DNA of 64,000 bases. Source: Amoebophrya sp. A120 (lineage: Eukaryota > Protista > Dinoflagellata). The stretch covers positions 1 to 64,000 of the forward strand of contig CAJINV010000004.1 of NCBI GenBank assembly GCA_905178155.1, written 5' to 3'. Shown one piece after another: positions 1-55,800 of this stretch (its first letter is position 1; each line of letters begins with the position of its first letter). The translations under genes were made by a program, and so were the position numbers. The notes beneath the pieces are model-generated. The model saw only the letters and a list, made by a program, of their open reading frames with translations. It searched no databases and was not told the DNA's origin.

Positions 1-7
1 CGCGAAA

Positions 8-3000: not shown

Positions 3001-4183
3001 AGTGAAAACCTGCGTGCAGTGCCGACTGAAACATGCCGCAGAAGAGCCCATCGCTGCGTACACGCCGAATCGCCAGCCAAAAAGGCTGTTCCAAAGCTTT
3101 GTCTTCGACCACATCACGGACTTACCAGAAAGCGAAGACGGGTACAAAAACATCCTCCGCGTCCGAGAAAAACTAGTCGACCTTGGCTGGCTGATACCAA
3201 CAAAAACGAGGGAGCCACAGGAAGCTTGGGATGAGATGTGGAAGTTCGTCTGGGCGCAAGTAGGCTGCCCGGACGACACGGCCGCGGACAACGCGTTCAA
3301 TTCACTTGTCGCGTCCTTTGCGGACATGGGCACACTGCACAACCACGGTAGAGCAAACGAGCCACGCGACCAGAACCAGGCGGAGCGACCGAATAAGGAG
3401 GAGAAAGACCGCCTGTTCAAAGTGTGCTCGCGCTTCCCCAAGACGTGGCCGAGAATTCTTCCTCTGCTGCAGCTGATCGACAGAAACGCGCCCCGACGCA
3501 AACTGAACGGGCGCTCCCCTGCAGAAGCCTCCTGCGGACAGAAACTCTGCCTTCCCAACGCGCAGATCTTCTCCGCCCTCCACCAAGGACGCGCGAACCG
3601 CGACGAAGTGATGGAGTCGCTGCGAGAATTCCGAGATGGGATTGTGGAAAATGCAGAGAAGCACAGCATTGACAGCGCGCTTTCAGCACTAAACCGCCGG
3701 GGCACGCTAGCGAAAACGGAGATCTGCGCGGGAGACTTGGTAATAAAAAGGAGTGACGCGACAAGCAAACCGACGCTGCAGTATGGCCCAGACCCCGAAA
3801 AGGCAAAGGTCTGGATCGTAGATGAAGTTGTCGGCGAAACAACACTCAAGCTAACGGCAGCGGCCTCAATCCCGGTAGTAATCGACGGCGAGGAAGTTGT
3901 GATCAACAGCAGCAGCGACAAGCTACCGGAGGAAGAGCGGCTGCAAACGGCAACAGGCTCGGCAAGGCAATTTATCAAGCTATGGCTGGACGAGTACATC
4001 AAAATTTTCAGCAATCCGAAAAAAGTCGGCAACCAAGAGGTCTTCGGCGTAAATGTATTGAACGGGAAATTTATCATTCGGGAGGAGACGGACATCGAGC
4101 AACTCGGTAAAACCAGGCACAAGATCGACAAGAAGTACACGTACCTCGAGAAATACTTGCCCCTGAAGGCGGACTTCATCTAA
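8..4183 (+). CDS. Macro-domain + Gypsy/Ginger-type DDE integrase fusion protein (probably 5'-truncated by the window)
   Basis: 1391-aa uninterrupted ORF. Macro motifs: VAGINAGSDDLHFGGAGL, VYAVGP, MPLLSGGLY. Integrase zinc finger: VH..ALH..YFNWPGL..CVQC. rve core: FQSFVFDHITDLP, GCPDDTAADNAF, QAERPNK. GPY/F-like module: GDLV..LQYGP. No RT YxDD or RNase H seen. Confidence 0.85.
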   Translation: MALFWLLNPTAREDPEWKAKFTQMGKELAEMVDDDQAFEDEAEMEGKISAVRKLGAPQCEDAGLQTALLCVDPEGPDAHVATNGRVRSLCWANTTHACVRAAKNEKKQKTSSSSSSAGAQKPKEEESKIKPTYGGRGRVDWEEIFDEPTAVIRPKRLYTKRDVQVKSGHEYFNYVLDVEVTQGGKTEKITRWIGRNKYKKLDKNLSDEQATKMAYEEALAFLRKAVGLRWAEEQKQLEHGYHGDVNHNFIILDPIASETNNPVPQFANDFTCRNVMFKDQNYCDNYLILRETVNCTYARCRGHGDVVLHKPSENDDFTPLHDVGVPVESELKWTTANKELHEKVALPLLQRWFGKQAADGDDIPSGDSKPDGEKAVPPLPQENLIPREEGVQASPAAVQQQAAANEPAQPKPHEEPAAPAPQEKRQPDAEAQVEDLAQEEQAESDTPADKIYKYNYRGHRVPDEFVFKTATEGQKYSDPFPPMKTKNTFFVAGINAGSDDLHFGGAGLNKRFQEVLGDKKTSTLWDVAAQKKFHIELEKKLLAQPGEVFSCDDKEFLEKFSKRFAVGIATGGKSRTATVFLSAEKSDRFRVMVYAVGPRGEICSKESFLAGIRLTTKHIVNVIHHYNDYAQRKIKTVRMPLLSGGLYRKPRTSPAKIADAILETFLEEYSKIEKKNRFTVEFAIAENAFSEAYRENREIIVSKNAKSVCSLGAGAVRAASKKKKKPLLPDFGLDFGDEIDLSLFPVESNLQQDEEIEAGGHTLQESLEPLIYEAVDTEQERILRSLPEMLNAGRLFSVPAAQGNEPTVVGYVQTGICLVVSKSHTKITSIFGLPQTNSAITVPARFAHKAVLVLAKELEDGDPTNASTARNIEASCFLNGLFRNSVVQHQKNCKQFGFMCQHLSGNEEELTAAQKRQTAVLKNFTICAGVMLYKGKIYIPRVELEIDSKFFNNKTRMRIYVVVRVHRRWALHSKIRRTKQMVKEYFNWPGLQETVELVVKTCVQCRLKHAAEEPIAAYTPNRQPKRLFQSFVFDHITDLPESEDGYKNILRVREKLVDLGWLIPTKTREPQEAWDEMWKFVWAQVGCPDDTAADNAFNSLVASFADMGTLHNHGRANEPRDQNQAERPNKEEKDRLFKVCSRFPKTWPRILPLLQLIDRNAPRRKLNGRSPAEASCGQKLCLPNAQIFSALHQGRANRDEVMESLREFRDGIVENAEKHSIDSALSALNRRGTLAKTEICAGDLVIKRSDATSKPTLQYGPDPEKAKVWIVDEVVGETTLKLTAAASIPVVIDGEEVVINSSSDKLPEEERLQTATGSARQFIKLWLDEYIKIFSNPKKVGNQEVFGVNVLNGKFIIREETDIEQLGKTRHKIDKKYTYLEKYLPLKADFI

Positions 4184-33000: not shown

Positions 33001-36000
33001 GCCGAGCTTTCTGATGCTTTTTCAGAAAATGAAGTACGTTAGGGCGGCGCAACATCAAACGTCTAATACCACGGAGAACATGTTTCATCGCAAGGGCCTC
33101 TCGGCGAACGACCGGCGCCAAAATGTTCTCATATCATGAGAAAAAAGTGTTACAGTTACACATTTGTTGGAGTTTCTGCATCACTGTGGCAGAGAAAACC
33201 TGTAATGCGAAGATCATAAGGGCAAACAGGAAGGAAATGAGGCTCCCAAGCGTTTCCTGCATGAGAAAGGTTGTCTGTGTTGCCGTTGTTGCAACGCAAT
33301 GTGTAACTGTAACACTTTTTTCTTCCCATATCTCACGAAAATTCGCCAGTACGTGAGCGATAAGAACCGGCAGGTCGTCGATTTCTTCCGATCAAAAAAC
33401 ACGGAGAGCCAGGTATCGTATTTCAAAACGTCCCCACCCCAGAGTTGTAATGCAAATCTGCATGTTCAGAATGAATGTTTCTCATGCGGAGCCCCATGAG
33501 AAGCATTTTCTAGTCGTGTTTTGCAATTTCTTGTCATGCTCCAATCTGCATGATATACTAGATCTGTGATGCTGCTGAGCTAGCTCAAACAGCACTACGC
33601 TACGAGTCCAAATTTGTCATGCAAAACAGCCAAAGCTTGTGGATTTGTCTAGCCGATTCGCCATCTTGACTATGGGGCGGGGACGTTTTTACATAGGATA
33701 CCAGGAGGTGGAGGACGGGACTTCCTACTCGTTCAAGATCCTCATCATCAAGCCGATCAACCACACGGCCATGGTTTTCCTGTTGTGGCAGGCCCTGATG
33801 ATCGCCGGTTACGGTTCCGGAGCCGCCCTCTGGGTGTTCGACCGAGCGGACTGTAGTCGTGGCCGGCTGGATGAGGCGGGGGTGGAACAACCAAGTGGTA
33901 CAAGTGGAGCTACCACTTCCACCGAGGAACAGCACCCGGAATACGAGGTGCCGCTCTGGTTCGGTGTGCTGTACAGCGTGTTTGTGATTCTGCCGGTGTC
34001 TACCAAATACAAATATCAATATGTCTGGGTCTGGAGGAGTGCAAGACTTGTTCCTATGGGCGACGTTTTGCATGATCCATAATTATGTCAGCGATGTATG
34101 CCTTAGCATCGCAGATTTTTAGAGGGCTGCTTGGAGTCTATATTCCGCATCGATGAGAATAAACTCCCCCTCCGCGTAGCACAAACAAACTGGCCTCTTC
34201 TCGTGATGCTGGCCATGCAACACAAATTCTTTTGGATTCCGAAGGCAGCATCGCAAGTTGCAACCATGTTCCAGACCCAGACATACTTGCAATGCATAGT
34301 TTCGCTCTACGTCAGTCTCGTGGTCAACGCTGTGTTCCTCGCTCTGATCTTCAGCTGGCTGCTCAGGGAGCGGATTATCACCTGAAAATCAAAATTAATC
34401 TCCATTGTTCCTATCTTCCAAAAATTTATCACACAATACATGGAGTAGGGCTTTTGTCATGCAAAAAAAAGTAGATGGGGTTGGGGACGACGATGGTCGG
34501 TTTTCAGGGAATGCGGATCTTTGAGCAGTTGGGGCAGCTCCGACTGCTGGGACAGATAGTGGGCAGCACAGATTTCGGGCGTGTTTCCTCGTCTTTCGGA
34601 ACTTCTTGTTCTTCCGTATCAAATGTAAAAATGTCTGGGTCTGGAAGAATCCGAACTTGTGATGCTGCATTTGGATAGTAAAAAAATCTGTATTGCATGA
34701 CCAGCAAAGGGAATGCATTTTTGGCTACGCGGAGAGGGCATTTGTCATGCGGAATAGGTATCACGAAGCCCTCAAGAAGTCTGTGATGCTAGGGCATGCA
34801 TCACAGACATCATGGCCCATGCAAAACGTGCATGACAAGTTTCAGAATCTTCCATACCCAGACATTTTTGCATTTGATATTCCGGGGTTGGGAACATCAA
34901 CATGGCGATACAGCAACCGAGCACAGCGAGGCCGCCCGCCCTCGTTCCACAACATCCAGGCTGTTCTTCAACGGATTTTATCCTATGTAAAAACGTCCCC
35001 ACCCCATGCCCACATAGATTATGCTTCTCTTCTCGTCGTAGTTCGTTCTCCCCTCTTTTTCATCTGAAAATTTGAAGTTTCTCTGTGCTTTAATTTGGTC
35101 TTTCCAGTACATAAACACCCCATGCCCACAGTCAACATGGGGAATCGGCTAGACAAATCCACAAGGTTTGGCTCTTTCGCATGACAAAATTGGAATCGTA
35201 GTGTAGTACTGTTTTAGGTAGTTCAGCAGCATCACGCATCCAGATACCATGCTGATTGGAGCATGACAAATTTCAAAACGTGAATAGAAAATGCTTCTCA
35301 TGGGGCTCCGCATGAGAAACATTCTCAGCATGCAGATTTGCATATGCAACTATGAGGTGGGGATGTTTTTAAATGCGATAGATTTCGGGCGTGTTTCCTC
35401 GTCTTTCGGAACTACTTGTTCTTCCGTATCAAATGTAAAAATGTCTGGGTCTGGAAGAATCCGAACTTGTGATGCTGCATTTGGATAGTAAAAAAATCTG
35501 TATTGCATGACCAGCAAAGGGAATGCATTTTTGGCTACGCGGAGAGGGCATTTGTCATGCGGAATAGGTATCGCGAAGCCCTCAAGAAGTCTGTGATGCT
35601 AGGGCATGCATCACAGACATCATGGCCCATGCAAAACGTGCATGACAAGTTTCAGAATCTTCCATACCCAGACATTTTTGCATTTGATATTCCGGGGTTG
35701 GGAACATCAACATGGCGATACAGCAGCCGATCACAGCGAGGCCGCCCGCCCTCGTTCCACAACATCCAGGCTGTTCTTCGACTCCTAGGGACTGTTCTTC
35801 TCCGTGGGAAGTTTGTGTGCCGTTGCAGACTTTCCCTTTACAGAGTTATGAGCCCAAAACATAAGTAGAACTAGAAGTAGCGCCGTCATACATAAGTAGA
35901 GTAGCATCAGTAGGCTAGAACTATGAAGGGCACTCGCAACCAAGGCGACGAAGCAGTAACAGTCACAGCCAGTAGTAGGCTGACAGGCAAGCAGCAACAG

Positions 36001-39000
36001 GAAAGCGGGCGACGTAGGCAGCCCGAAGCGAGAAGAATAGCGAGCGGTCGGAACGGCTAGGAAACGAAGGAAGAGCTGCTGCGATCGTTCGCACAGCTAG
36101 GCAAGCAGCAGGCCCAGTAGAGTATGAATGATTTGGATTTTGAAACTAGAACTAGCAGGAAGAACCTACCCAACACCGGTAGCAAGATGCAAAGCACTCG
36201 AACCCGTAGACCTGCGCATCTGGAATCCTTAGGGGAATCAGATCGCGACCTGGCTACTTCAGTGCAAAGCTTTAGCGCTTCAGCATCTACAGAGCAAGAA
36301 AAGCACTCACCTGACAAACTTCGAAGATTCCAGCCTTTTCATTCGATCGCAAGATCGGGCAATAACAAAAGGGACAGGTGGAGGATTTGAATTTGTTCGA
36401 GTTGCTAACGACCCAGGCGCGACCTGCGGCAAGGAAGGAAGCTAGTCGGCCAGACAGCACAGCACAGAGGACCACTAGGGTCGTGGATTCGTTCCACCAG
36501 CGCGATAGAGAACTTCGACACCAGGCACAGGGCAAAAATCGCACCCGTGCACAGATTCGAATACGTGGCAGAACAGAGGACGGGCCCACGAGCCGTCGGC
36601 GCCAGCTTGCGAGCGGTCGGCATGTCGCCACAGGAACGGACAGGCTACGAGCCGTCGGCGCCAGCCTGCGGGCGGTCGACAAGTCAACACAGAGAGGAAG
36701 AGGCTACCTTCGAGGTTTGGCCAGGCTGCTCAAAGGCCCGAGCATGCCACACAGCACACAGATAGATAGATACGAGGTCGAAGGATGTAAGACGTCCCAG
36801 GACGGTGCGTGGACGCATTCAAATAGAAAAAGCGCAGCTGTGACCGACTTAGCAAGTTGCTCTATGAATGGTTTTCGATGCCTCGAATTCCGCAAGAAGA
36901 TCCCGCCCGAGCGCGTGGCCAGATCTGTTGCTTCGTGCACTGACAAGATTCCTGCTTTGGCAGCGAATTCATTTTGACGATTTAGGTTCTGACTCGATTC
37001 CCAATCGCGTCCCCATTCCAAAAAGTATATCTGTTTTGAAAAAGAAAAACCCACTAGGCACAGACACAGGAAACTCAGTCACCGTTTCAGGGGGTGAAGT
37101 GCAGACCAAACCTGCAGTAGGTGAAACGGCGCCAGAGTTTCGGCGTCCGGAACGGGTAGAACCCAAAGCCCCACGAGAAAAGCAAGAACAGGCGGCCAGT
37201 AGCGGCTGCAGAGGATTCCCCGACCGGGGGGAGAAGAAAGACGACGATGAAGAAAGACGGATGTTTGTAGATTTAGTTGTAGAGACGAGAACGCACTATG
37301 GCTACGCAGCAAGACAGATTTACAGTTTTGAAACTTTGGACTTTGGAGTGAGGGGGTGTATGACGGATAAGTTTGTAATGCACCCACAGCCTCACAGAGT
37401 ACAAACTTGATCCACTCCAATAGTCCAAAGATCTAGATAGCCTAAGGACATGAAGACAGATAGAGATCCTTAGTGTTGTAGTACCATGAAGACAGTCCAC
37501 AGGGCTAGGAAGACACTGAGCCAACATGATGAACACATATACACCCAGGGCCCTTGAGCTAGGACAGACTTACAGCATAGCAGTACTAGACTTAGTCATG
37601 GCACTGTAGATGTGCATAGTTGTTCTACCATCGTAGTGTAGTTTGTATTGCGTACTCCGTGGGAAGTTTGTGTGCCGTTGCAGACTTTCCCTTTACACAG
37701 CGAGGCCGCCCGCCCTCGTTCCACAACATCCAGGCTGTTCTTCGACTCCTACTGGTGTTGTCGCAAAGAACCACCATCCGATCTCGTCCACGCCACTAGC
37801 TTACAATTCTTTTCCTCCAGGAACCGGCGCAACGTCTTGTGCCGCCGAAACGGCGCAGCTGGTCGCGCAACACGTCGAGTACCGCCCCCCGTCTAGCAGT
37901 AGTACAACAAGCATGATGGCAGCGACCCCTCCATTTTTACCGGCTGTCCCAGCGGCGGCCTGCTCTTCATTGCTCGCCCCACCGAGACCGCGCAGGCAAA
38001 GCATTATGGAGAAGGTCGGGGGGGGCCATCAAGTTTATTCGCAAAGTAATCTTCCCGTGCAAGTGCAACAGCATCAGTTACCGGGGTATCCAATTATAAC
38101 GTCCACTGGAAACTTCGTAGCCACTTCTTGTTCCTCGCGGCCAACCAGTCAACGGTCTATCTTGCAACGTAGCCAACTTTCCAGTCACAGCAACCTGGAG
38201 GCGGTCCTCGAGGGTGGAGCAGATGATCCTTTTGCGGCTCCGAGAATAGATTCTGCTGCATCTTCTGTTCCCATTAATATTTCTGCGGAAAATAAAACGA
38301 GTGTCGGCCTAGTACATGAAGACCGACCAAGCTCCACGGTGACCAACGCGGCGGCTGGTGCAACCACTCGCCAGAGTGCTGTTCATATTAAACCTCCAGC
38401 TGTTTCAACACAGCTCCGCGGGACGACAACGACCTCCTCGACTGCATCTACAACTCTTGCTGGAGGATCAACACAGCATGAAATCAATAGGGACGCCGAG
38501 ACGTCCCGCAGCGAGGCCCTGCAACAGCGCACCCTGTTGCTCCTGCAGCGCCGGCAGAGCAGCATGGGCATGCAGATCCTGCAGAACGCCTCCTCCAATC
38601 AAGGTGCTGCATCAGCTGCGGCCAGTAATCTCGCGCCATCAGGCTCAGGCGTGATCAACCACGTAGCAGGCCAGACTGCCCCGAAGATGAACAACACGCT
38701 ATTCCATCAGCGGCGGGCGAGCACGGCAGCTGCACTCGTTGTCCCGAGAGCCGCGATCTTAAACGCTGCGAACGCCGGCTGTATGGGCACGACACCAAAC
38801 GTTAATCGTCGCGCGAGTTCCACTGGGCTAATACAACAACACATGATCATGGCACCTAGTACAACAACTTCTCGCGGAGCACCAGGCGCCCCCACCAGCA
38901 TAGTTAAACCAGTACTATCCCAATCACGACCAGATGTTGTGGGTGAAGGGGCGATTCTTTTTCAAGGCCGACGTGCCAGCAGTACTTCTGGGTACATCTT

Positions 39001-42341: not shown

Positions 42342-43477
42342 CAGGGACTACAACTTCTCAACAGGCATACTGAATGATCTTCATTGTTTTTACATCGCAC
42401 TTCTGGAAATCATAATCAATCTAGTATTTCTATTTCATTTTCTATCTAGATACTTTTATCTATTGTGCATAGTGACTGATGGCGTGCACCTTTTATCTTG
42501 CTTTGAGTTTGCACCAACATCGTGGTCCTCCGTTTTGGTTGATCATCGGCATAGGAAGCAAATTGCTTTGCGTACGAAAAAAGCTTCCTAGAAGTGAGTA
42601 GTTGTCTATGATTGAACAAGCGAAAGTGAAATGCAAGCGTACGGATTGTGATTGTCCTCTACCGCTACGTTTTTTTTTCTTAAAAATAAAATGCAACTCT
42701 GGTGTTACTAGTTTTTCAAGGATAATGGTATTCTCCTATTCGTACTACCATTCCAGGTACGAATGTAGCACGTCGCTCTCCCCGCGTTGATATCAGTCTC
42801 GAAGCAACTTCTTTTTAGGTCATGATTACGACTAGAAATAAATAAAAAACCGGTCATGATGAAAATGTCACCATTTTTGAAGGCGATGCTAAAAACCATA
42901 TTTCCAATTTCTCCGGTTGCAAGCTGCGTACCGAGTTTATTTTTGTCTTACTTATTGCCTGCAGAAATAGAAACTTCATCATCCGTCATCATGAAATTGG
43001 AGCTCCGCCATAGCATAGTTTCTTCCCGTGCATCTTCCGTAAAATGTCAGTGCAAAGAAGGAGAAAAGATTATACGTACTCTCTGTTTTTATCATGATCC
43101 GGGCGGAAAGGCAGTTTGCTCCGTTGTGCAGCAGTGAATTTAAGAAGATGGAGTCGCCTGAAGCTACATTTCCATTTACATAGTTCATCTGTAAATAACA
43201 CATAATACGATGGGTATGATGTGCTACGTATTTTACTAAAACTAGCAAAGAAACTCTTTCAAAGAGACAGTCATATCACATATTCGAAAAGGTAAAGCGA
43301 GGCAAATATCATACCAAGCAATTGTTGAACAAACAACTTGTTGATAAGGCGGTGTGAATCACCCATGATCATGAAATAGAATGAACATGGCCTGTCGACG
43401 TTTCTGGAATTTCAGTTCACATCAATTCTGAAAAAATGATGGATCAGAATTACTATCTATTATATTCATGCGAAAAA

Positions 43478-44000
43478 AGAGGTCTACAGAGGGTCGAAGG
43501 GAGGTGGCCGAGAGGTCAAAAGGAGGGCAACAGAGGTCAAAAAGAGGTCGACAGAGGTGGAGAGGTGGCGCGGGAGGTCGTTCGGGAGGGTGGCCGAGAG
43601 GTGGCGCGGGTATAGCCAGCCGAACCGTTCACCCTAAAGCCGCGCCTATGGGGCCCGGAGGTGGCCGAGAGGGTCCCGAGAGGGTAGGCGAGAGGGGGAC
43701 AGAGGTGCCGAGAGGTTGCGCGAATAAGGGCGAACCTCTCGCGCACCCTCCTGGCCACCTCTCGGCCACCTCTGTAGACCTCTACTGGCGAGTATAGCTG
43801 GACTATTAGCAGCACCTCTCGGGAGAGGTGAAAAAGAGGGTCTGCGAGAGGGTCAAAAAAACCCGAATCCCTCCGGCACGCGGCCGATTTTGTTTGGGCC
43901 TTTTCATCGCGCAGGCCCACACCCTTTCGCGCTACCCTCTCGCGCTACCCTCTCGCGCCACCCTCTCGCGCGACCCTCTCGCGCGACCCTCTCGCGCCAA
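43478..44000. repeat. GAGAGG/CCTCTC-rich fold-back repeat region
   Basis: AGAGGTCTACAGAGG (43478) is inverted at 43769-43783; ACCCTCTCGCGC-type tandem units at 43921-43998. Confidence 0.75.
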
Positions 44001-45007
44001 CGATTTCCGCCGGGAAGCAAATAGGGCGGGGGCGTGTGGGTGATCAAAAAAGGGCAGCGCGGCCCCCGTATTGCTTCCTTCGGCGCCTATAAATGTCGAG
44101 TCAGCTTCTCTTCGCCCCCAAGCTTCGCTGCAGCTGCTCTCTGCGCATAGCGCCTGCAGGCGTGGGAAGCGCGCAGGAGGCCCTGCGGGTTGACATGGCG
44201 AAAACCGGGCCAGTAGCCCCCTCGGTCTGTTGCGCTGTGCCCAAAGCTCCGGCGCTGCGGTCCAGCCCGCGCATTGTCCTGCCCCGCCACAACAGCCTTG
44301 CGCTCCGGCGTTAGCCGGAGCATGGCTGGTCCATGTTCATGTAAAAAAATCAATCGCGGCTGTTCTAACTACTACCTCAAGATCTTCACAGTTGTGCATT
44401 CCAGCAGTAGAGATCCACATATTTTTCATTCCCGCGCCGCAGTGAAAAGAAAAGACAGTGACAGTAAAGATGAAAAAATAAAAGCAAAATCTCTCATGCA
44501 AAAGAGGACCCTGATTCAAGAACATCTATATTATGGGCCGACGTTAAGGCCACAGTGAACAAGATCTGACATATTTATGAACCTCACGCTCTGCTCGTGC
44601 TCGTACGACGACTGATGCACTACAAGAAGTTCCATGTTGATGCATTGAGTACCCGAGACATTGAGTTGTCGCATACCTCCGAAAATTAATAATATTAATT
44701 TCCTGAATTCGAATTATTATATTTTTTTGCAGCCACGCCACTTCTTCCGCTGCGTCGCAAAGGCAAACTACTCCTATTCAGCAAATAAGAAGATTACAGG
44801 GACGAAAAAGAACAGGAGTAGGTCGTGCTGGGGCGATCTAAGACTTAGAGACGAACTGACTACAACAAAAATCATCACTGTTTTTGCACAGTTTCCAGGA
44901 ACAAGATTTGTACTAGACTACTAGACAGCACGTTATCAACATCGCTTTAGAATATTTACAGACTACAGCACGACAGAGAACTAGAAGACGACGAAAAAAC
45001 ACGGAAG

Positions 45008-47036
45008 ATGTTGCGTTCACTCCTCTCCTCGTGTAGTGTTTTTCTCTGGTCACACCCGGGGCACCAATCCGTCCTCGCCAGCGTGTCGCCCCGCCTTCGC
45101 CGCGGCTTGAGCCGCGAAGTCGGGAGAGAACGGAGTCGGAGTCCTGCCGACGTCCTCGAGACCTCCCGCACTTCTTCCTCGACTGCTGACGCTGCTGGGT
45201 CCGCCGGTCCCGCGCTCGTCATTTGGACCATCGGAGGCGCTGCGTTCGGGGACCGGATTCCCTATGCACACTGGAAAGACAGGACTGTTGCGGACCTCAT
45301 CAACAAAGTAGAAAGGGGAGAGTGGGAGCCTTCCTCTGGTGCGGCTTACCAGCAGGACGAGTTTTTTGGTAGCAGTTTTGGAAGCAGTAGGACGCAGCTC
45401 GTCACGGCTGGTTTGCCCGCGGTGCAACTTGATGCCGGCACCAACGGCCAGCAGAAATTGGCAGACCAACTGCGCGCGCATCTAATGCCAGCACCGCTCG
45501 TTTCCGTTTATTCGTCTCCTACTTCAACTTCGCCTGCGGCCCAACAAGACACCAGGGACATACACCTGACGCTTATCACTGCGACTCGGCAGAAGCCGTA
45601 TTTTGCCATGCTTCTCAGAAAAGCCTTCAGCATCGCCGAGGAGGTGCAGATGCAGCCGAATCGGCAGTCGCTTATTGACACGCTGGAGACTGATATGAAA
45701 GGGCATATGATGAACTTTTGGCGCCCGCCACACGTAGAAGAACTGCAAGGAGGTCGAGGCCAACAAGTGCCCGACGAGAAGAGGGCGCCCAGTGTGAAGG
45801 AGCAATTCTTGGCCTTCATCACGAGCGTCACAGGCGGATCGAGGTCGCCCGAATTGACCGCCTTCCTTGACCGGCATGGAAACGAACTCGCGTGGCTTCT
45901 GGCTCAGATGGACACAGCGCTGCGGACGATGCGTATGCCGGCACGGCCTGGCGATGTCCTAGTGGAAGATGAGTATGCTTTCAAGAGGAGTATGGCTCAA
46001 GCGAGCGTAATGACCCCGGTGAGCCTCGCCCCTTTAGGAACATACGAAGTCGGTCAAAAGTAGAACAAAAGCAATGACGTCGTCCCCCTCACTGACAGCG
46101 CCGCCGCAGCACGGGCCAACGCATAGCCCCGACGTGGAGTTAGATAGAAGGCTCCGGATAGAGTAGTAAATAGAAAGCAACAGTAAGACTAGCGGCTGGA
46201 GACACAAGCTCGGTGATACGCGAGGCGTGCCCGCCAACTCCGGACCCGCAGGGATACGCCCCTCCCCGCGGGATATCGTGGAAAAGAGGCATAGATCCCA
46301 AACAGCAGACTAGCCGCGGTGTGCCATGAGGGCCGGCGCGGATGGGGACCGGAAGGGGGGAGTCGTGCACCAGGCACCGAAAAGGCATGCTTGCCCGCCG
46401 CAACAGGAGTCGGCATGATGTCATGCGTGAGCGGAGGCGCCAACTGCGCTAGGCAGTGGAAGGGCGGATAGATACAAATACTCACTTAGATTGCACAGGT
46501 AGAACTTTGAAAAAGAGACTTCTCAGGCTTGAGAAATTGCATAGTGCATTGATCCCCTCCGATGGCCACGGCCTGGCGATGTCCTAGTGGAAGATGAGTA
46601 TGCTTTCAAGAGGAGTATGGAAGACGCGCGCCTGACGTATGCGTATCGCGACAAACGTCCTTGTCGGCCTGGTGCTCGTCATCTTCAATATGTATCCTTG
46701 TACCACACCACAATGTTGGATGGTGAACCAATCAGAATCTGGATCCACCTGGTTCGGAAAGGAGCCTCCGAAGCTGTACAGGTAGACGCCGAGACCGAGG
46801 ACAGCCTACCGGTAGCTGTACCGGAGAGTATTGCCGCAATTCAGCCTGGTACCGGAGCGCATCTCTTTACTCAGCTTTTCGAATCGGAGGTGAATTTGGG
46901 CGAAGATGCTCTAGGAGTGCCACTGATTATGAGGATTGTCGGCCAAATCCACGGCGCAACTTTCGCAAATCTCCCTTCTCTGAGCTTCGCTATTGATTTT
47001 TTCACCCGTCCACCTCCTGCTCCGAGGGCGGAATGA
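45008..47036 (+). CDS. Hypothetical protein split by a 571-bp insertion with a 54-bp flanking duplication (possible pseudogene)
   Basis: ORFs 45008-46063 and 46587-47036 share EDEYAFKRSM and join in frame when the insert and one repeat copy are removed. Confidence 0.6.
45996..46566. mobile_element. 571-bp insertion flanked by a 54-bp exact duplication
   Basis: 45942-45995 = 46567-46620. Confidence 0.75.
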
Positions 47037-48534
47037 GGAGCAAGAGTTCCTCGGCCCTCGCTGGAGTCTATCCAGCTTGACATAGGGAAATCGAGCCGAG
47101 GATGCAGATAATTAGCCGACGAGTAAGGGATGAGTAAACCCCTTAAAAAAGGCTCTTTTACAGAGCGAGTCCCCGACGGACAAGCGGTTACTCTGTTGCG
47201 AAGGATTCGAAAGCGACTCACAGATAGAGACAAGTACTCAAGAGAACCATGAGCCATGCGGTGTGAATCGCCCATGAAATGAAATGCACATAAATTTTGT
47301 CGACGTTTTATATCAAATCTAAAAAATGTATGATGATCAGAGGAACAGTATTAATCCGAAAAAAAAAACGCAATATTAATAAAGTACTTGAACTCAGAAA
47401 ACTACTAGAAGGCACTAGGTAGCACGTCGTGTATGATTTAACTCGAACCGCATATCGGGGGGATAAGCTAGAAGCAAGCGCTCTACTTCACGCAAGCACT
47501 TTATGTTTATTTCTTATCGAAATATACAGTTGTGACCTACTCAAACCTCAATTCTGATTTTACTATAAATATACGGCGACGGACTGGAGTATGGAAGCAT
47601 GGTACCAAGGGCGACTATGGTTCTCTGAAGACGGTGGCTTCAGTATGTACAGAAGAAGTCCAATGATGAAAGGAACTGAGCTCGGTTATTTGTATTTCGA
47701 AAATTTTGCTCCACTACGACTACTATTGAAAATCGTTTACACAAAGTTTGTGTTACAAACCACTATCAGAATAATATTGTACTGATGTAGTCGTGCAAAA
47801 TTTGAAATATTAGATCGTGCTGGAGATAGTGGCGCAAAGCGAGATGCTTTTGTTTTGGGATTACTTCCTATGGGAAAAGACATGATAAAGAAATCAACTT
47901 GCGGCACTTTGTTGCAGTAAGGCGCTCAACGCATACAGATTTTGCGCGTTTTGGATTTGTAGTAATGCAACAGGACCCATGATCTTGTAGCATCGATGTG
48001 GTAAGACCTTGCGCTTACAGATACTTTTCACGGTAAGCAAGAAGAGTATAATTTTGTTATATTTTTCGACCCGTAAGTTTACTTACTAAGTAAACAGCTC
48101 TCGAAAGTATAATTGCAAGAATCTGGACCAAAAATCGCACGGCAAACTGGAAACTGTTAGACAGATTTGAAGAAGAAGGAAAAAACGTGATTTGGAAAAA
48201 GACGAAGATAGCCGGACTCTTCGTGATCGTGTTCTGTTCGAAGACTCTTGCACGGGCGCCAACTTTCGTAGTGGTGAGCGAGTCAAAGACTAGGAAAATA
48301 AGAACCCTCAAGCAAGTATAGCACGACCAGCACCAGCAGGCTCAGAGAATCGGCATCAAGTCAGCATCAGTGCTGTCTAAGTAAAAATCTTCCAGATTTC
48401 AATCACGCAACCTTTGGCGGGAGAAGTACAGAGTCCCTCGGAGTCCTGCATCCTCATGATGCAGTGAAAAGGAACAAGCAGCGAAAAACGTAGAGATTGT
48501 TGTTTGTGAGGGTGGCGATAAAGTAGCTGCTGGA

Positions 48535-51500
48535 ACTGTTATGTCGATCACCTCGATGATCCATTTCTTTCCCAGTGTCTTTCTACGGAGATCTCGTTCT
48601 TTTTTGGCGCACAACCTGGGAGCCGCCTTATGGATCTGTGCAGTTGCGCCACAATTTCCCGGCAGCCTCGTCCTTTTGGATTCTTGACTTTTGTTTGTCC
48701 TGCAGATTTCTTGTGAACTGCACGACAAAAAAAGGGTGCGAACCGGACAAAGGAGCAAAAGCGTGCGGAAAGTTGCTGCCCCTGTTCCAAAGATGCCACT
48801 GGAGTCTCGAGGCCCGAGAGGTGCCCTCTGGAGCAAGGGCAGCTGCTTTCCATGCGCTTTCCGGTGTATTTTTTGTCGTTCTTGGCTTCGATTCAGCGCA
48901 ATAGTCACGCACTTCGCCTGCACTGCCAACATCCGGCTCAGACATGTTCGTATTGCGAAATCGGGCGAAAACTTGCCCAAAGATCGCATCTCCGCAAGCG
49001 TCCGGGGACTGGCCTGAGTCCCTGGCCGAAATGGTGCCACATTTATGACACTTTGTCCGATGCTATGCTGTTCAAAAATTGCTCTAGGTTTGCGAAAATC
49101 ACAGCGCATCCACCAAGCGGTCACATTTTGGTGACCTCTTTATGAGGCTAACCACGGCGGCACGCTTTCAATTTTCCGGTCTAGCTTTGCGAAAATCATG
49201 GGTCGGGGAGGGGGGTGCCGAAAATGGAACAAAGCGAAGCCATTTCGTGCTCAAAACGGGTGGCCCCTTTATGAGCCTAATCAGCACGGCACGGAGCCAC
49301 TTTTCCGGTCTAGCTTTGCAAGAAAAGGACAAAGATCGCGACAGCAGGCGCTATGTCATCTCCAAAGGGATGTTTGGAACCATTCAAACTAATGGGATTA
49401 GCTAGATCGCAGCTGGGTGGTTGCCTTGCAGGTGGCAAGACAATTATCCAGCTATGAGGTAGCCAGTTTGTATCAGCTTACGGGGGGAATCAGCATTGAA
49501 AACGAAACGCGTTTCCACGATCTAAAAAATTTTTTTTGGAATTCGCTGAATTAGACATCTGAGCCTGTTATAACTGTTATGTCGATCACCTCGATGATCC
49601 ATCTTTTTCCCAGTGTCTTTGTACGAAGATCTCGCTTTTTTTTTTTTTGCAGGTGACAAGTGAAATGCCCAGTTTCAGTTTCAGATGCGCTTTCCGCTCG
49701 TGTTTCGCGGGGGTTACGCCGTGTACAGCAGGTCGACACTGCCAGGAAAATCGATGTGCGCGCCGCATTGGTCCATACAAATTAAAACCCTAAACCCTTC
49801 GGAAACATAAATCCGCATGCATACAGGGGGGTCACCCCTGAACCCTTTTTCGAACTCGGACCGGACACACGCATGGAAAATCCCCACGATAACGTCTATA
49901 GCCGTAAGCCGCGGCGGACGTTGCTATGCTGTGGGACGAATAGCAAGGGGGTTTGATATGGGTCGAGACTAAGCGCGATGTGCAGTGGAGTTGTGTCCGG
50001 GGTGTAGGTTCACTATCTATTCTAGCTCTTCCGTAGCCGTATCTTAGGCGCCCGCCAGGCCGTGGATGCAGATCGCCGCTGCGGAACGAACTGGCCAAGG
50101 GAGATACGGCCTGCCGGCGCAGCTTGGGCGGGACAGGGACGGGGGAAAGCGTTGGCGGGCGCAACAAGACACGGAGGTAGTTCTGAGATTGCGGAAGCAA
50201 GCTGTGGGCAGCAGTTGGCTCCAAGGCGTGAACAGAAAAAACAGAAACATGATGGCGATGATGATGATGATGATGATGATGATGCAAAGGAATGATGGAA
50301 AGGAAAAGAGTCGTCGTGTAATCCCTGCGTGCTCGAAACCCCAAGCGCCTGGCAAGCAAAAGAGTGTCAGTTGTTGTGTCGTTTTCCCCGTATTGCCGCC
50401 CTCTTCTCGTCTTTCGCGTCTCTGTGTTGTTCTCTTCTCGTGTGTCTCGTGTTTTGGTTAGCGCTAGCGCCGCTTCGGTTGTCTTCGCCCCTAAGGCTAC
50501 CAGCTCTGCTCCCACCCGCAACTGGTTTTCGGTGTGACCTGACCCCGACGAAACAAGGCTCCGTTGCGGGGTAATCGGATTGTAGGATGCCCAAAATGAG
50601 CCGGGGCCCTATCTTTGACACTGTCGAGCGGTGCACATCATAGCACGACCTCCCTATTGTCTGTACTGCCCGGCTCGGTTGTTCCTGTCTTAGGTCTGCT
50701 CGGGGACGCTTGGGCCTCTAATACCCCAGTCCGAGACTTGCAAGGTCCCAAAAACCTGGGCTGAAGTCTGCCAAGTGGGCAAGGATGAAAGCCCCCGCTT
50801 GGAGCCTCTTGCGATTCACTTCACTTCGCTTCACTTCACACACTGTTATGTCGATCACCTCGATGATCCATTTCTTTTCCAGTGTCTTTCTACGAAGATC
50901 TCGTTCTTTATGGCGATGCTAAGTACGGAAAAGTCAAAAATGTCCAAAAATTTCAGGGGTCGCGCATGTCGCCCCTCCCGTTTGACGGGAATTGCCGGCG
51001 CCCCACCTCATGCATGAGCAAAATAGCCGAAAGGCCCCGCTTTGAGGCAGTGAGAAAGGCAGACCGGCTTGAGTAGCAGCTGCTGGTGACCACATGGCTT
51101 CCGGTCCGCTCTGTCGCTTCGTCCGACGAGTGTGGCGCGCAGAGATTGGTCGGAGCGCTGTGCCGGCCGCGGCTAGCACAAGAAGGCGCATTGAAATCGG
51201 GTTAGCTAACTTCGAGCCCTGCGGCCGCCATCCCGTTGCCCCACACGCCGAGAACACTCGCCGCCCCTCTGAGGTTAAGGAAAAGGCAAAAAAACAGGGG
51301 CGCGGTGCGCTCTGGAGAGGGTTTGCCTGCGATGAGGTAAATGCCTTCGCAGTATTGCGTTGGCAAATGCAAAGCACACGCACGGCGCGGGACAGGGCGA
51401 AAAAAACACGCTCCGCCCGTTCGCAAACGATGCCGCGGCCTCTTCCGTGAGGTCCTCTAGAGGCTTGCCCTCCCCGTCTTTCATAGACCCCCACTGTGGG

Positions 51501-51956
51501 CTCCGGTTCCCGACATCCTGGCAAGCCCCACGTCGAACGCACTCGCCTGTTGCTCATTTCAGAAAATAAAAGTCCGGATCCACCCCCGGACAAAAAAGAA
51601 GCAAACGGCCCTTCGGCTACCCCTAAAAGGGCTTTTTTGGGTACCCCTAAAGAAGCTTTGCGCGCTATGTAGATGCAGCTGGTTTCGGGGTGGTGTGCCT
51701 GAGCACAGAAGCACGGCGCCTGGCCCGTATGCAGAGGGGACTCGCCACACTGCGTCAATGTGACTCCCCCGGGGGGGTCTTGCGAGTTCGACAGCCAGCG
51801 CCCCCCGCGGGGACGAAGGGTCGGCACACTGGCCAGCGTCCTTCCCATCATACGGTGTCCATTTTTCCTTTGGCACTGCATCGGCGCAAATATGTCGATC
51901 ACCTCGATGATCCATCTTTTTCCCAGTGTCTTTCTACGAAGATCTCGTTCTTTTTG
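48535..51956. repeat. Array of four ~65-bp direct repeats with three unique ~1-kb spacers
   Basis: TATGTCGATCACCTCGATGATCCAT..CCAGTGTCTTT..AGATCTCG at 48540, 49578, 50847 and 51891. Confidence 0.92.
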
Positions 51957-52827
51957 CGATGAAGATGAAGAAACCTGCTGATCATGAGCGTAGATTAGAT
52001 ATCACGTCTATATGTCGAGTGTTTTTTTCTGATGATAAACAAAGTCGCCTATATTACACAAAAAAACCGGTGGATCCTCAACATGGAATATGTTCTGCTC
52101 GTTCGCGAATTATGTGTTTCAAGTTCTTTCTTTCGCGAATGTGTTTCAAGTTCTTCCGTGGATAGATCTGTCTATAAATGTGTTTAAAAAAGTTCCGCAC
52201 CTCCTGCAGGGAATGGGAAGCTGCAAAGCTGGCTTCTTATAACTTGCTGCCGTCCACGCGGCCGCGGCCATTCATGCCTCCTTTTCTTGCCGGTATTAAT
52301 TCATCAGCATTTTAAGAATGAAGAGTTTTTAAGATTTTTGCGGCAGTAGAAGTGTACTCAGAATCATTTCAAATCATTTCAAACAGGAACCGCCTATTAT
52401 TTTCTGGTCCTCGTAGTGCTTGGCGAGAAAAAAAACTAGAACTCTATGAAGTTTTTTCGACACCGTGGCCGTCCTCGTGATTTCGCTGCAGCTCCAGCTC
52501 GTGTACCTGTCTACAAAAGTTGTTTTTTTGCAAGACAAAGAACTTTTTTTCCCACGGCCGTCGTGAGCATCTATTCGCTCTTCCTCTGCGTCACCGAGTT
52601 CGTTTCCGAGATACATTCTGGCGCGTTATGCATTGCATACATTCTGACCGCGTCTGGAAGTAGACCAAGAAAAGTGCAGATGTCTACTCGTCCTATCCAG
52701 CTCTTTGTGGACGATCTGCAATATTATTCTGTGTCGTGTCTGCAATGTAGGTACCGCATGGCATGATAAGTTTTGCTCGGGAGGTTAAGTACTTGTTCTC
52801 CTTCTTCATGCCTAACCTGCACGAGGA

Positions 52828-55800
52828 ATGATCGTGCCCTCTTTGATGGGACGAGAGAAGCACTGCGCCTCTGCTCTTGCTGACTATGCAAAAAATCACT
52901 TTTTTGTCATGTTGTACTGCAGAATCAGAATCACAACAAGTTTCCATCCTCCCACATCACTGCTCTACCGAGTTGTCATGTTTGCAATGCATGCGCGTCA
53001 CCGCAGCGCAAATCTTCGACGACGAACACAATTGGGAAGGTCTCAGGCATGTTCCGGGAACGTTCCGAAATGAGTCCCGGGGCAAGTTTCCGAGCAATGA
53101 GCCTCCGGGGGAGGTAGGTTGGTCCGGAACAAGGCCCGGGGCAGGCTCCTGCGCAGGCGTCCCGCGAGCAAGGTGCTCCTCGGGGGATATTTGCGGAAAT
53201 AGCTAGCCCCGCCGAGGGGGCCACGAGGGTGGTCCGGGCCCTGTCTTTGTCGGCGAGAGTGCTTCGCATCGTCGAACCGAAGTGCCGACCTTCGGCACCG
53301 CCAGCCGCCGACGTGCTCTTTGATGGGAGCGTCGCTGTGGTTTGATCCGGTTCGGGGGCCTCGCAACCCTAAAACGGCCAGAGGGCCACCCCGGGGGTTT
53401 TTGGGTTTCTGAAGGAGGGCAGGCTGCGAGGTGTCACGGCATCGGAGGTCGTCTGGGTGTTGGCTCGGCGCAGCCTGCCAGGCCTGCCCCCCTCTCGGCG
53501 CCCGGCGTGGATGGGCCGGCCCCCGTCGTCGGGCGGGCCCGCCGAGGATTATCTTGTTGTCATCGCGCGCGCCCCCGAAACGCTTTGTTTTATCGCATTC
53601 CAGCAAACGAAGCCGCATGCCATCGTGTAACGCGCGTTACACGATGGCGCTCTCCCTTCATCCTGTCTCCTGCTGCGCTGGTGTGGCATGCTCCCGGCCG
53701 TAGACGCGCTGTCTCGCCACAGGGCGACACTCGCTCTCGCGCCCCCCCTCCGGTGCAACACCTCAAAGAAAGGCCTCCCTTCTTGTCGTGCCCACAGCCG
53801 CGAGCACGGACGGGGGCTCGGCTGTGGGGGAAGTATGCTGCATCGTGCTCATCTTCGGTTGATGTGCAAGCGTGTTGCCGTAGCGTTTGGCCGTCGTTTA
53901 GGTGGTTCATCTTGGTGGGCTGCTGTCTCGCACCAACGTGCAGCCGGCATCCACTTGAGCAGTATAGACCGGCGGAAGGTTGGGCCCTCGTTGCCTGGAA
54001 CCCCGGTGCCCTCTTGTATTGCCCCAACCGGAAACCGGCCCGACAAGTTCTGCGCAAGTTCTGGGCAAGTTCGGCACCCCATACATCTAGACCCATGCTT
54101 TCGGAGTAACACATCACTGTTCTACTGATGCATGTTTGCAATGCATGCGCGTCACCGCAGCGCAAATCTTCGACGACGAACACAATTGGGAAGAACCAGC
54201 ACCCACCGTCCAGAAAGCAGCACGACAGGGAGGCAAGAAATTATGGTCAGAGCAGCGCAGGAGATCATGCACCTCCAGCAGCCGAATCTGAAGGAACAAC
54301 GCTGTCAGGAAGATCCTCCTCCTCGGCCTCAAAAACTACAGGGGCGCTACAAGACCGGGACAAATCAAATTCAGACTCCCCACGAAGAAGTAGAAATGCT
54401 GACTCGGCTTCCGCCACAGCACACGTTGTATCTCCGACCGAACATCAAGATCAAGAAGCGGAAGATGCGACGCGGGTGCAGCTTGAAACTCAAGAACAAG
54501 AGCGCGATGTTGATCAAGCGTATCCTGCTGATGTGCAAAAGTTGTATCGTTCATCTTTACTCGGTCTGTCCACTGCGATCTTGCATAACGCACGTGAATT
54601 TGATTTTACCTCAAACCGCACGAGGAAGTTCATTTGGCCTTTACAGAAATAAAACTGTCGTGGCTGATACTAGTCCCAGTAGTCGTGCTTCACATAATTA
54701 CCCATATTTTTCGTTGTTTTGGTTTTCGTTTTCCTTTTGCAATGCATAAAGCGACGTCTTCATCTTCTGTACCAATTGGAGTTGAATCTGCTCCAAGTAT
54801 CTCAGCAGCAGCAAGCGGTGCGACGCGGTTGCAGGCGGACCGCAAGAAGGACGTCCAGAGACGAGGAACATCAAGATCACACCCTGCTAGTACTTCTTCA
54901 TCAACATCGAGGGCCGCCAATCAACGGCAGGAGCCACCGCGTAGAAAGCCGCGCGAAGTTGTATTGAAGAACGCCGATCCTCCTGATGGCAGTGGCACCA
55001 CCAGGACCTCCAGGAGAATTAGAAACGACGGCCGTCATCAACAGCAGAATCAGCATGAACAAGATGCTCCTGCTCCCGCACGAGGACCTCCACCGCCACC
55101 AGACAACATTGTCCATCTCACAGAAGGACGAGAACAGAAGAAAGAACCTCCAGTCGACACCGTCGACGTCTTATCAAATGCAAAAATGTCTGGGTCTGGA
55201 AACTTGTGATGCTGCGTGGCGTAATATCATGAGGGGATCACAAGTGCTGGCTCAGCATGACAAGTTTCTGAGCTTCTAGGTGTTGCCTATTCTGCGTGAC
55301 AAACTGCGCTTCTGCATGACAGAAAAGTGGCGCGCTTGGGTAACGTGCATGACAGATTTGGGAGTCATGCCAGACAAGCATGACAAACATGCACTCTTCC
55401 AGACCCAGACATTTTTACATTTGATACGTCTTTTCCGATGGTGAAGAAATGGTTCTCACGACAGGAGACAACGCGGAGCTCCTTGCCCAAGCTGGAGATC
55501 ATGCGCTCTCGTCAAGCGGAGGTCCTCCCGCAGGTAGTGGCGCGACGGCGCGTCTGCAAGAGGATATTAGAAATATTGACAGGCCGAGCAGGACGGGTGG
55601 CGGAACAGGAAAAATAAATGCACTTCCCACCCGAAAGCATGGCTACCAGGAGCAACATGGTAGTACTTCGGGTGGGAACAAAAGAACGAAACAGTCAACA
55701 TCTCCTGGGTGGTCGTCCCCAGAGGCAGAAGAAGATGTTGTACCAAAAAGACACTATCTGAGTCCACCTCGAGAGGATCATGTTGACAGTGATGCCGCGG

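What the first reader, a model, noticed from the sequence alone, without database searches (positions are those of the whole stretch)
48535..51956. Repeat-spacer array: four ~65-bp repeats separated by three unrelated ~1-kb spacers
Seen: repeats at 48540, 49578, 50847 and 51891 (periods 1038, 1269, 1044 bp), with a few differences between copies. The spacers look unrelated to each other, lack introners and have no convincing ORF. Collapsing to one repeat joins the flanks into a short continuous frame (EKEQAAKNVEIV..VMSITSMIH..SRSFCDEDEETC*). Inference: repeated capture of ~1-kb DNA at one site, each event duplicating the target. The logic resembles CRISPR adaptation or site-specific retroposition, but no cas or integrase gene is adjacent.
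Basis: partly seen in the sequence, partly recalled or inferred. Interest (0 to 1): 0.8.

Follow-up and report, generated by a model that had tools for sequence, protein, structure and literature searches.

The report
Mobile DNA stacked at one site
In an intron-riddled marine protist genome (likely the parasite Amoebophrya), three unrelated pieces of the genome's own repeated DNA sit one behind the other between four copies of a 65-72-base sequence, likely because mobile elements landed again and again at the same spot and duplicated an unusually long landing site each time; it looks like a CRISPR array but shows none of its hallmarks.

Summary
The four repeats are real (65-72 bp; periods 1038, 1269, 1044), and short-read contigs from other samples, one a wild seawater metagenome, carry three repeat-spacer junctions letter for letter. 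The spacers are not foreign captures: each belongs to a repeat family of the same genome. Other copies of spacer 1 end at its right edge with different flanks and no repeat, so the 65-72-mer is a locus-specific target duplication. Spacer 2 opens with T13; in a wild relative its family is a poly(A)-tailed insert with an 11-bp duplication, the signature of LINE-driven retroposition. At least three more inserts with 46-87-bp duplications lie in this window; the scan noted that class before in this genome (e1-10627074), but no three-deep stack turned up in my look-ups. Best reading: three insertions, likely target-primed, at one re-usable intergenic break. Open: successive events versus one looping event, and what fixes the ~70-bp stagger. 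No cas gene, viral match, Rfam match or coding constraint. New variant of known double-insertion tandems; interest 0.4.

The parts
48534..48605 (+). Repeat copy 1 (target copy, continuous with the single-copy left flank; ends in T6)
   Evidence: copy1/spacer1 junction in X9 contig 48555-48777 with 0 differences
48604..49572 (.). Spacer 1: member of a dispersed family, paralogues about 90-94% alike; right end is a true family end, left end is cut short; last 8 bases repeat 7 bases of the target's left edge
   Evidence: loose ends behind 49572 (3 contigs, agreement 0.56) and before 48604 (2 contigs, agreement 1); junction view
49572..49648 (+). Repeat copy 2, running into T13 (49636-49648) = poly(A) tail of the minus-strand insert
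   Evidence: left-flank contig stops at 48563, as expected from the 31-nt stretch shared by copies 1 and 2
49649..49985 (-). Spacer 2a: tail-proximal ~340-bp piece of a high-copy poly(A)-tailed family
   Evidence: 95% identical over 324 nt to the T15-headed 2.25-kb insert of L001/L002 with 11-bp duplication; highest depth
49981..50841 (.). Spacer 2b: low-copy repeat joined to 2a at a 5-base overlap; (GAT)n tract; (TTCAC)n right end; the part best covered by RNA-type contigs
   Evidence: (X4 loose end before 49981; X4 contigs 50168-50758, 0 differences; X2 paralogue contig with 6 differences)
50842..50918 (+). Repeat copy 3 (68 bp, or to 50918 if the GCGATG shared with the right flank is counted)
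   Evidence: X3 contig 50742-50959 bridges it with 0 differences
50910..51890 (.). Spacer 3: member of a dispersed family; 318-codon minus-strand open frame without constraint; family ends not seen
51891..51955 (+). Repeat copy 4 (65 bp, continuous with the single-copy right flank)
   Evidence: X8 contig 51857-51983, 0 differences
47400..48533 (.). Left flank: single-copy, AT-rich, no coding signal
   Evidence: (X1 contig 46979-48563, depth 46, 0 differences)
51956..52952 (.). Right flank: single-copy, AT-rich, no coding signal
   Evidence: (X1 contig 51924-53006, depth 42.9)
45942..46620 (.). Sister site A: 571-bp multi-copy insert between exact 54-bp duplications, inside a reading frame
52953..54193 (.). 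Sister site D: 1070-bp multi-copy insert between 87-bp duplications (63 bp exact)

Best explanation
The array is three unrelated pieces of the genome's own repeated DNA lying between four copies of a single-copy 65-72-bp sequence, and it likely arose by three successive, target-primed retro-insertions at one staggered break, each of which would duplicate the target and leave it usable again. Shown: the anatomy, the multi-copy nature of the spacers, the locus-specific repeat, the poly(T) head of spacer 2 and its poly(A)-tailed relative, short overlaps at the junctions. Inferred: nicks at the T-run (top strand) and about 65-72 bp to its left (bottom strand) leave long 3' overhangs; a LINE reverse transcriptase acting in trans primes on the T-run, copies a non-autonomous RNA (switching template once in spacer 2), and joins the far overhang through a few matching bases; gap filling duplicates the target. 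The stack survives because the site is intergenic; no function is needed.
For: Repeat only here: 4 matches in the window, depth over copy 4 close to what four copies give (rough), paralogues of spacer 1 stop at 49572 with different flanks. Spacers multi-copy: X1 flanks 42-46 against 126-603 over spacers 1, 2a, 3; X2 flanks 26-27 against 53-447, with separate contigs over the same coordinates differing at 18 and 19 places. TPRT hallmarks: T13 directly after copy 2; the same family in L001 has T15 plus an 11-bp duplication ending TTT|GC; the array's right edge is also TTT|GC. Spacer 2 is a two-part chimera joined at 5 shared bases, as in LINE template-switch chimeras (PMC13174262, passages). 7-base match between the end of spacer 1 and the target's left edge (chance about 3e-4, post hoc). 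Coincidence of three random long-duplication events is unlikely (about 0.003 expected per genome, rough). Precedent for re-use of a regenerated target: PMC5932611 (passages). Non-LTR elements exist in this lineage (PMC7789003, PMC12130899, passages).
Against: Only spacer 2 has a poly(A)-type tail; spacer 1 is cut short at the end that should prime, and the family ends of spacer 3 were not seen. The one relative of spacer 2a that I could read has an ordinary 11-bp duplication, not 70. Sister sites A, D and 35.7-37.7 kb have long duplications without a T-run, which points to a host process rather than one enzyme. The variants do not follow a simple sequential history: copies 1+3 share one variant and copies 2+4 the other, and the most alike pair (1 and 3, 2 differences) is not adjacent. 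No empty or intermediate allele was seen, no contig spans the array, no long reads were served. No RT or endonuclease gene near the array.
Confidence: 0.5

Rival explanations
1. One looping event: a polymerase (LINE RT or repair polymerase) primed at the end of a 70-nt overhang, copied a repeat, jumped back to the left edge of the overhang, recopied the target, and did so three times before the break closed.
For: Needs no re-cutting of a non-conserved site; same right edge, slightly different left edges; apart from one T-run variant the copies differ by private changes only; spacer 2 already shows template switching.
Against: The variant shared by copies 1+3 versus 2+4 needs recurrence or conversion here too; three different templates in one event is demanding; double insertion is the documented route to such tandems.
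Confidence: 0.22
2. Host repair, not retroposition: half-finished transposon insertions or DNA-templated patches at a fragile site are resolved with long duplications, whatever the element's class (the reading of earlier finding e1-10627074).
For: At least 3 further sites in 64 kb with 46-87-bp duplications around unrelated inserts, without T-runs; an introner sits at the junction of a 403-bp duplication; inserts are cut short at one end; precedent in bacteria (PMC2853133, passages).
Against: T13 at exactly the target's T-run and a poly(A)-tailed relative fit RNA priming for spacer 2; it does not explain why both edges recur three times.
Confidence: 0.16
3. A self-renewing trap: the site collects pieces of active mobile families and is transcribed to silence them (piRNA-cluster or CRISPR-like memory).
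For: All spacers come from multi-copy families; RNA-type contigs cover spacer 2b, copy 3 and copy 4; the copy1/spacer1 junction is shared with a wild sample.
Against: Same footprint at ordinary sites, one in a reading frame; no machinery nearby; RNA cover is thin (depth 2.5-6) and two of the three runs are only guessed to be RNA; repeats decay by private changes.
Confidence: 0.05
4. The repeat is a tandemly duplicated small RNA gene or micro-exon whose spacers were later filled by repeats.
For: Ends in a T-run like a Pol III terminator; U1 is undetected in this lineage (PMC7789003 section 10); all three periods are multiples of three; an AG|GT proto-splice site lies on the minus strand.
Against: No Rfam match at E<=10 or at gathering score; folding no better than shuffles, z -0.83 to +0.37 in 8 of 8 folds; spacer 1 fills the whole gap to the base; no exact match in the metagenome collection that does hold a relative of this organism; RNA-type contigs read through copies 3 and 4 unspliced.
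Confidence: 0.05
5. Assembly artefact (gap filling with overlapping contig ends).
For: No contig or long read spans the whole array; X1 and X2 may be the source of the assembly.
Against: Copies carry distinct variants; three junction sets are found unchanged in other samples: copy1/spacer1 (X9), spacer2/copy3/spacer3 (X3), spacer3/copy4/flank (X8); contig ends at 48563 and 51924 fall exactly where the shared 31-mers predict.
Confidence: 0.02

Closest known systems
Tandems of transposable elements made by double insertion at a regenerated target (McGurk & Barbash 2018, PMC5932611, passages seen; Drosophila R1 tandems separated by 33-nt rDNA duplications, jockey dimers with distinct 5' truncations)
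   Same: Elements head to tail, each pair separated by a copy of the target; the target survives each insertion.
   Different: Here three (or four) different families share one site, the duplication is 65-72 bp, and the target is single-copy intergenic DNA rather than rDNA or a short motif.
LINE-driven retroposition in trans and template-switch chimeras (PMC13174262, passages)
   Same: Poly(A) tail at a T-rich nick, truncated far end, two-part insert, target duplication.
   Different: Shown for spacer 2 only; duplication several times longer than the 11 bp made by the same family at L001.
Site-specific non-LTR elements with long duplications: rotifer R9, CRE, R4, R8 (R9 paper not held; title and one passage seen in PMC3636483; the 126-bp length is recalled)
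   Same: Long duplication, repeated use of one target.
   Different: Their targets are conserved multicopy RNA genes and the insert is one autonomous family; neither holds here.
Insertion with long target duplication of bacterial restriction-modification genes (PMC2853133, passages)
   Same: Long, variable duplications of a unique target, no dedicated integrase nearby.
   Different: Prokaryotic, single inserts of genes; here non-coding repeats, stacked.
Amoebophrya A120 introner elements (PMC7789003 sections 10, 11)
   Same: Same genome type; mobile inserts bounded by direct repeats.
   Different: Introners have 8-20-nt inverted ends, 3-5-nt direct repeats, about 240 nt mean length and are spliced; these inserts are ~1 kb, lack such ends, and no splicing was seen.
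CRISPR arrays (defining features from my own knowledge)
   Same: Repeat-spacer-repeat geometry from iterated target duplication.
   Different: No cas genes, spacers 20-30 times longer and uneven, spacers are self repeats, eukaryotic host.

Membership tests
CRISPR array | cas1/cas2 or other cas genes nearby | tested here: not met
   Pfam on 76 frames of 44.9-56.1 kb and 75 of 115 long frames of the rest of the window: no cas family; the rest of the genome was not available
CRISPR array | short, uniform spacers (about 25-70 bp) and 23-55-bp repeats | tested here: not met
   spacers 966, 1198, 981 bp; repeat 65-72 bp; size ranges recalled
CRISPR array | spacers from foreign elements | tested here: not met
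   spacers are multi-copy in the organism's own DNA runs; no blastn match in 50,697 phage records; only the repeat, not the spacers, was sought in viral contigs (0 matches); algal host and giant viruses not tested
CRISPR array | processing into guide RNAs | not testable with these tools
   no small-RNA data; raw-read runs X10, X11 gave 0 reads on the region
TPRT (LINE-driven) insertion | poly(A) tail abutting a T-rich nick | tested here: met
   spacer 2 only: T13 at 49636-49648; not seen for spacers 1 and 3
TPRT (LINE-driven) insertion | family members elsewhere with tail and target duplication | tested here: met
   spacer 2a family at L001/L002 (one locus, two alleles): T15 and 11-bp duplication; other families could not be fetched
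TPRT (LINE-driven) insertion | truncation at the end far from the tail | tested here: met
   spacer 2a stops at 49985 while L001 goes on for about 1.9 kb; spacer 1 is cut at its left end instead
TPRT (LINE-driven) insertion | an autonomous LINE with a matching 3' end | not testable with these tools
Double-insertion TE tandem | target duplication in each tandem junction | tested here: met
Double-insertion TE tandem | independent events (intermediate or empty alleles) | tested here: inconclusive
   no joint removing spacer plus one repeat in 6 of 6 runs with any cover; contigs drop rare forms and cover was thin in four of them
Site-specific non-LTR element (R1/R2/R9/CRE type) | target in a conserved multicopy RNA gene | tested here: not met
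   single-copy flanks; no Rfam match; no tRNA
Amoebophrya introner | terminal inverted repeats with 3-5-bp direct repeat | tested here: not met
   no terminal inverted repeat of 14 nt or more bounding a spacer; no match to the window's introner families
Amoebophrya introner | removed from mRNA | tested here: inconclusive
   X3 and X8 contigs read through copies 3 and 4 unspliced; cover too thin to exclude
Tandem small-RNA gene | known family or conserved stable fold | tested here: not met

The most novel reading that the evidence does not exclude
A eukaryotic self-renewing capture site: one 70-bp intergenic target is re-cut and regenerated, files kilobase samples of the genome's active mobile families in series, and is transcribed as a silencing memory, a convergent CRISPR-like or piRNA-cluster-like array built by borrowed LINE machinery.
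Probability: 0.05. Interest if true: 0.85.

Novelty: new variant of a known kind. Interest (0 to 1): 0.4.

Why it matters
Long (45-90 bp) target duplications are rare in eukaryotes and usually tied to one site-specific element; here they are common (4 sites in 64 kb) and one site was used three times by unrelated families with nearly the same two edges. That gives a natural test of what sets duplication length and site re-use (element enzyme, chromatin or host repair), and of how repeat-spacer geometry can arise without Cas1. In this intron-gaining lineage such duplications can also create splice-ready introns: at sister site D the insert begins GT and the duplication ends AG. As biology it is most likely inert debris, hence a moderate score.

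Tried and rejected
No whole genome is held, so genome-wide counts and family consensus ends could not be made; the records behind L001/L002 cannot be searched further. Raw-read RNA runs X10 and X11 laid 0 reads on 44.9-54.8 kb: no test. Repeat pattern: 0 matches in metagenome contigs and viral contigs. Whole array against phages: no match. Rfam: 7 chance-level matches at E<=10 in 44-58 kb, none on a repeat except a Termite-leu match at E 7.1 touching the end of copy 3 and an sR14 match at E 3.8 starting at the last base of copy 4; 0 at gathering score. Pfam: only 5 sub-threshold matches (E 0.011-0.07) among 76 frames. Ideas dropped: repeat as divergent U1 or spliced-leader RNA (no model match, no fold); spacer 2a as a TA-flanked MITE (L001 shows the family running on for kilobases); spacer 3 frame as a gene; integron attC-like sites (consensus boxes, recalled, do not fit by eye). 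The X1 joint 45941>46567 that skips sister insert A is not taken as an empty allele: 54 letters fit both sides, more than the 31-letter words of the contigs, so it may be a graph artefact. The protein atlas gave no answer for the right-flank frame. Literature: no paper on long duplications in Amoebophrya or dinoflagellates in searches (1 unrelated listing, not read; 0); PMC12005148 passages held nothing relevant; PMC12203849 gave only the R9 title. Supplements of PMC7789003 and PMC12130899 were not read and may classify these repeat families.

Full report
Observation. The repeat finder returns one family of four copies with start-to-start spacing 1038, 1269 and 1044; a 25-nt core matches exactly four times in the window and never in 100 shuffles. 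The shared stretch is 65-72 bp; its left edge lies at 48534, 48535 or 48540 in copy-1 register and its right edge at a T-run. Over a 62-nt core the six pairs differ at 6, 2, 3, 6, 3 and 3 places. The spacers do not match each other or the window's introner families.

Setting. The window is filled with short inverted-repeat elements whose ends begin TAT (seen in the related loci), as described for Amoebrophrya-type introners of strain A120 (PMC7789003 section 11); earlier unchecked notes on this genome give the same name. I infer the organism and did not test it with a marker gene. The array lies in about 5.9 kb between a frame ending at 47036 and one near 54110; the flanks are AT-rich, score as non-coding under a model trained on the window's long frames, have no long frame beyond shuffles and no Pfam match. 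No tRNA and no Rfam family lies there. The only mobility domain found is an integrase zinc finger in the frame at 2-4180, 44 kb away (75 of 115 long frames scanned).

Is it real? Short-read contigs support each part. X3 (another sample and study than X1) bridges copy 3 with about 100 and 50 bases on its sides and 0 differences. X9, a marine metagenome, holds 48555-48777 with 0 differences, that is copy 1 with its private variant running into spacer 1. X8, a seawater RNA library, holds the end of spacer 3, copy 4 and 28 bases of the right flank unchanged (28 is under the tool's 31-base rule for bridging). In X1 and X2 (one sample, perhaps the source of the assembly) the flank contigs stop at 48563 and start at 51924, exactly where the 31-nt stretches shared by copies 1/2 and 3/4 would split a 31-mer graph (the graph reasoning is mine). 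With these junctions only one linear order is possible. The copy2/spacer2 junction itself was not among the pieces shown.

What the spacers are. In X1 the flanks lie at depth 42-46 and the bins over spacer 1 at 181-232, over the left third of spacer 2 at 297-603, over its right part at 50-65, over spacer 3 at 126-190; X2 gives the same pattern (26-27 against 98-178, 279-447, 26-46, 53-108). The tool warns that summed depth is no copy number, but separate contigs at single-copy depth cover the same coordinates with 10-19 differences in about 200 bases, so these are paralogues. Three contigs follow spacer 1 up to 49572 and then go their own ways (agreement 0.56): that is the family's end, and no repeat follows it elsewhere. 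Two contigs reach 48604 from a shared upstream sequence, so this copy is cut short on the left. The 65-72-mer is therefore a duplication of this locus, not a terminus of the elements.

Spacer 2 tells most. It opens with T13 fused to the T-run of copy 2. A scan of metagenome contigs with a 24-nt motif found two loci, two alleles of one site in a close relative (99% alike). There the family (95% identical over 324 nt) heads a 2.25-kb insert inside an introner, begins with T15 and is flanked by an 11-bp duplication that ends TTT before GC: a poly(A)-tailed retroposed insert on the opposite strand. In the array this piece stops at 49985 and passes through five shared bases into a second, low-copy repeat, like LINE template-switch chimeras (PMC13174262, passages); a nested later insertion would fit too. 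The right flank of the array also reads TTT then GC. Spacer 1 ends in eight bases of which seven repeat the left edge of the target (chance about 3e-4, post hoc); copy 3 shares six further bases with the right flank. Spacer 3 has a long open frame that shows no constraint (3 of 18 listed changes synonymous; these are the best-supported rows, 106-138 more were not shown) and no relatives.

The class. A systematic look finds further long duplications around unrelated inserts in the window: 54 bp around 571 bp inside a reading frame (45942/46567), 87 bp around 1070 bp (52953/54110), 46 and 56 bp around 1.8-1.9 kb (35732-37751), and 85 bp around 139 bp in L001. Inserts A and D are multi-copy too. 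The scan noted this class earlier 38 kb beyond the window (e1-10627074, unchecked). What is special here is the three-fold re-use with both edges nearly fixed; at four such sites per 64 kb, chance would give about 0.003 such stacks in a 115-Mb genome (rough; genome size from PMC7789003).

Mechanism. I commit to successive target-primed insertions at a staggered break with about 70-nt 3' overhangs (0.5). Shown: anatomy, paralogy, tail and relative of spacer 2, junction overlaps. Inferred: the nicks, the enzyme, the order of events. Against it: only one spacer has a tail; the family's other readable insertion has a normal 11-bp duplication; sister sites lack T-runs; and the copies alternate at one variant (1+3 against 2+4), so that the most alike pair is not adjacent. 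That variant is a shift of one C within a T-run, of the same kind as a private change in copy 2, so recurrence or conversion is plausible but unproven. A single looping template-switch event (0.22) and class-blind host repair (0.16) remain open and are not exclusive of an RT role.

Function. RNA-type contigs are sparse (24 in X3 over 9.9 kb, 5 in X4, 1 in X8) and cluster on spacer 2b, copy 3 and copy 4 at depth 2.5-6; X3 and X4 are only guessed to be RNA. None removes a spacer with one repeat. One X8 contig joins 50456 to 51857 (1400 skipped, GT..GT, two letters fit both sides): a non-canonical intron, a deletion in a wild genotype or an RT jump; one contig at depth 2.5 cannot decide.

Comparison and verdict. 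It works like the double-insertion tandems of Drosophila elements, where each insertion regenerates its target (PMC5932611, passages), and differs in duplication length, mixed families and single-copy target. It fails the CRISPR tests that could be run and is not an introner. Four literature searches found no description of long duplications in this lineage; subscription papers and supplements were not covered. New variant of a known kind; interest 0.4; the memory-array reading is not excluded but unlikely (0.05).

Noticed in passing
window 52953-54193: Sister insert D begins GT right after the first duplication and the second duplication ends AG, so insert plus one copy could leave as a canonical intron; it also holds a perfect 30-bp palindrome at 53619-53648.
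   Followed up: partly
window 45942-46620: 571-bp multi-copy insert with exact 54-bp duplication splits an orphan reading frame (44951-45995 joined to 46567-47036); X1 shows the joined form, which may be a graph artefact.
   Followed up: partly
window 34570-37751: A second stacked site: a 403-bp near-exact duplication with an introner at its junction, then a 50-56-bp segment present three times and a 46-bp duplication around a 1.8-kb insert.
   Followed up: partly
window 50456/51857: One seawater RNA contig skips 1400 bases with GT..GT ends and removes copy 3; splicing, deletion or RT jump undecided.
   Followed up: partly
window 48540-51956: All three periods (1038, 1269, 1044) are multiples of three (chance 1 in 27), and variants alternate between copies 1+3 and 2+4; unexplained.
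   Followed up: partly
L001 464-2747: 2.25-kb composite poly(A)-tailed insert inside an introner with an 11-bp duplication; allele L002 carries two extra 168-bp units near the tail. Fits notes on introner-targeting LINEs.
   Followed up: partly
L001 4508-4816: 85-bp duplication (92% alike) around a 139-bp insert in a wild relative: the long-duplication class is not confined to this assembly.
   Followed up: no
window 2-4180: 1393-codon open frame with an integrase H2C2 zinc finger (Pfam PF17921, E 7e-9), likely the pol of an LTR retroelement.
   Followed up: no
window 43370-44350: GC-rich ~1-kb element made of internally inverted GAGAGG/CCTCTC micro-repeats, without a long duplication.
   Followed up: no
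window 48758-48860: A 100-bp imperfect palindrome inside spacer 1.
   Followed up: no
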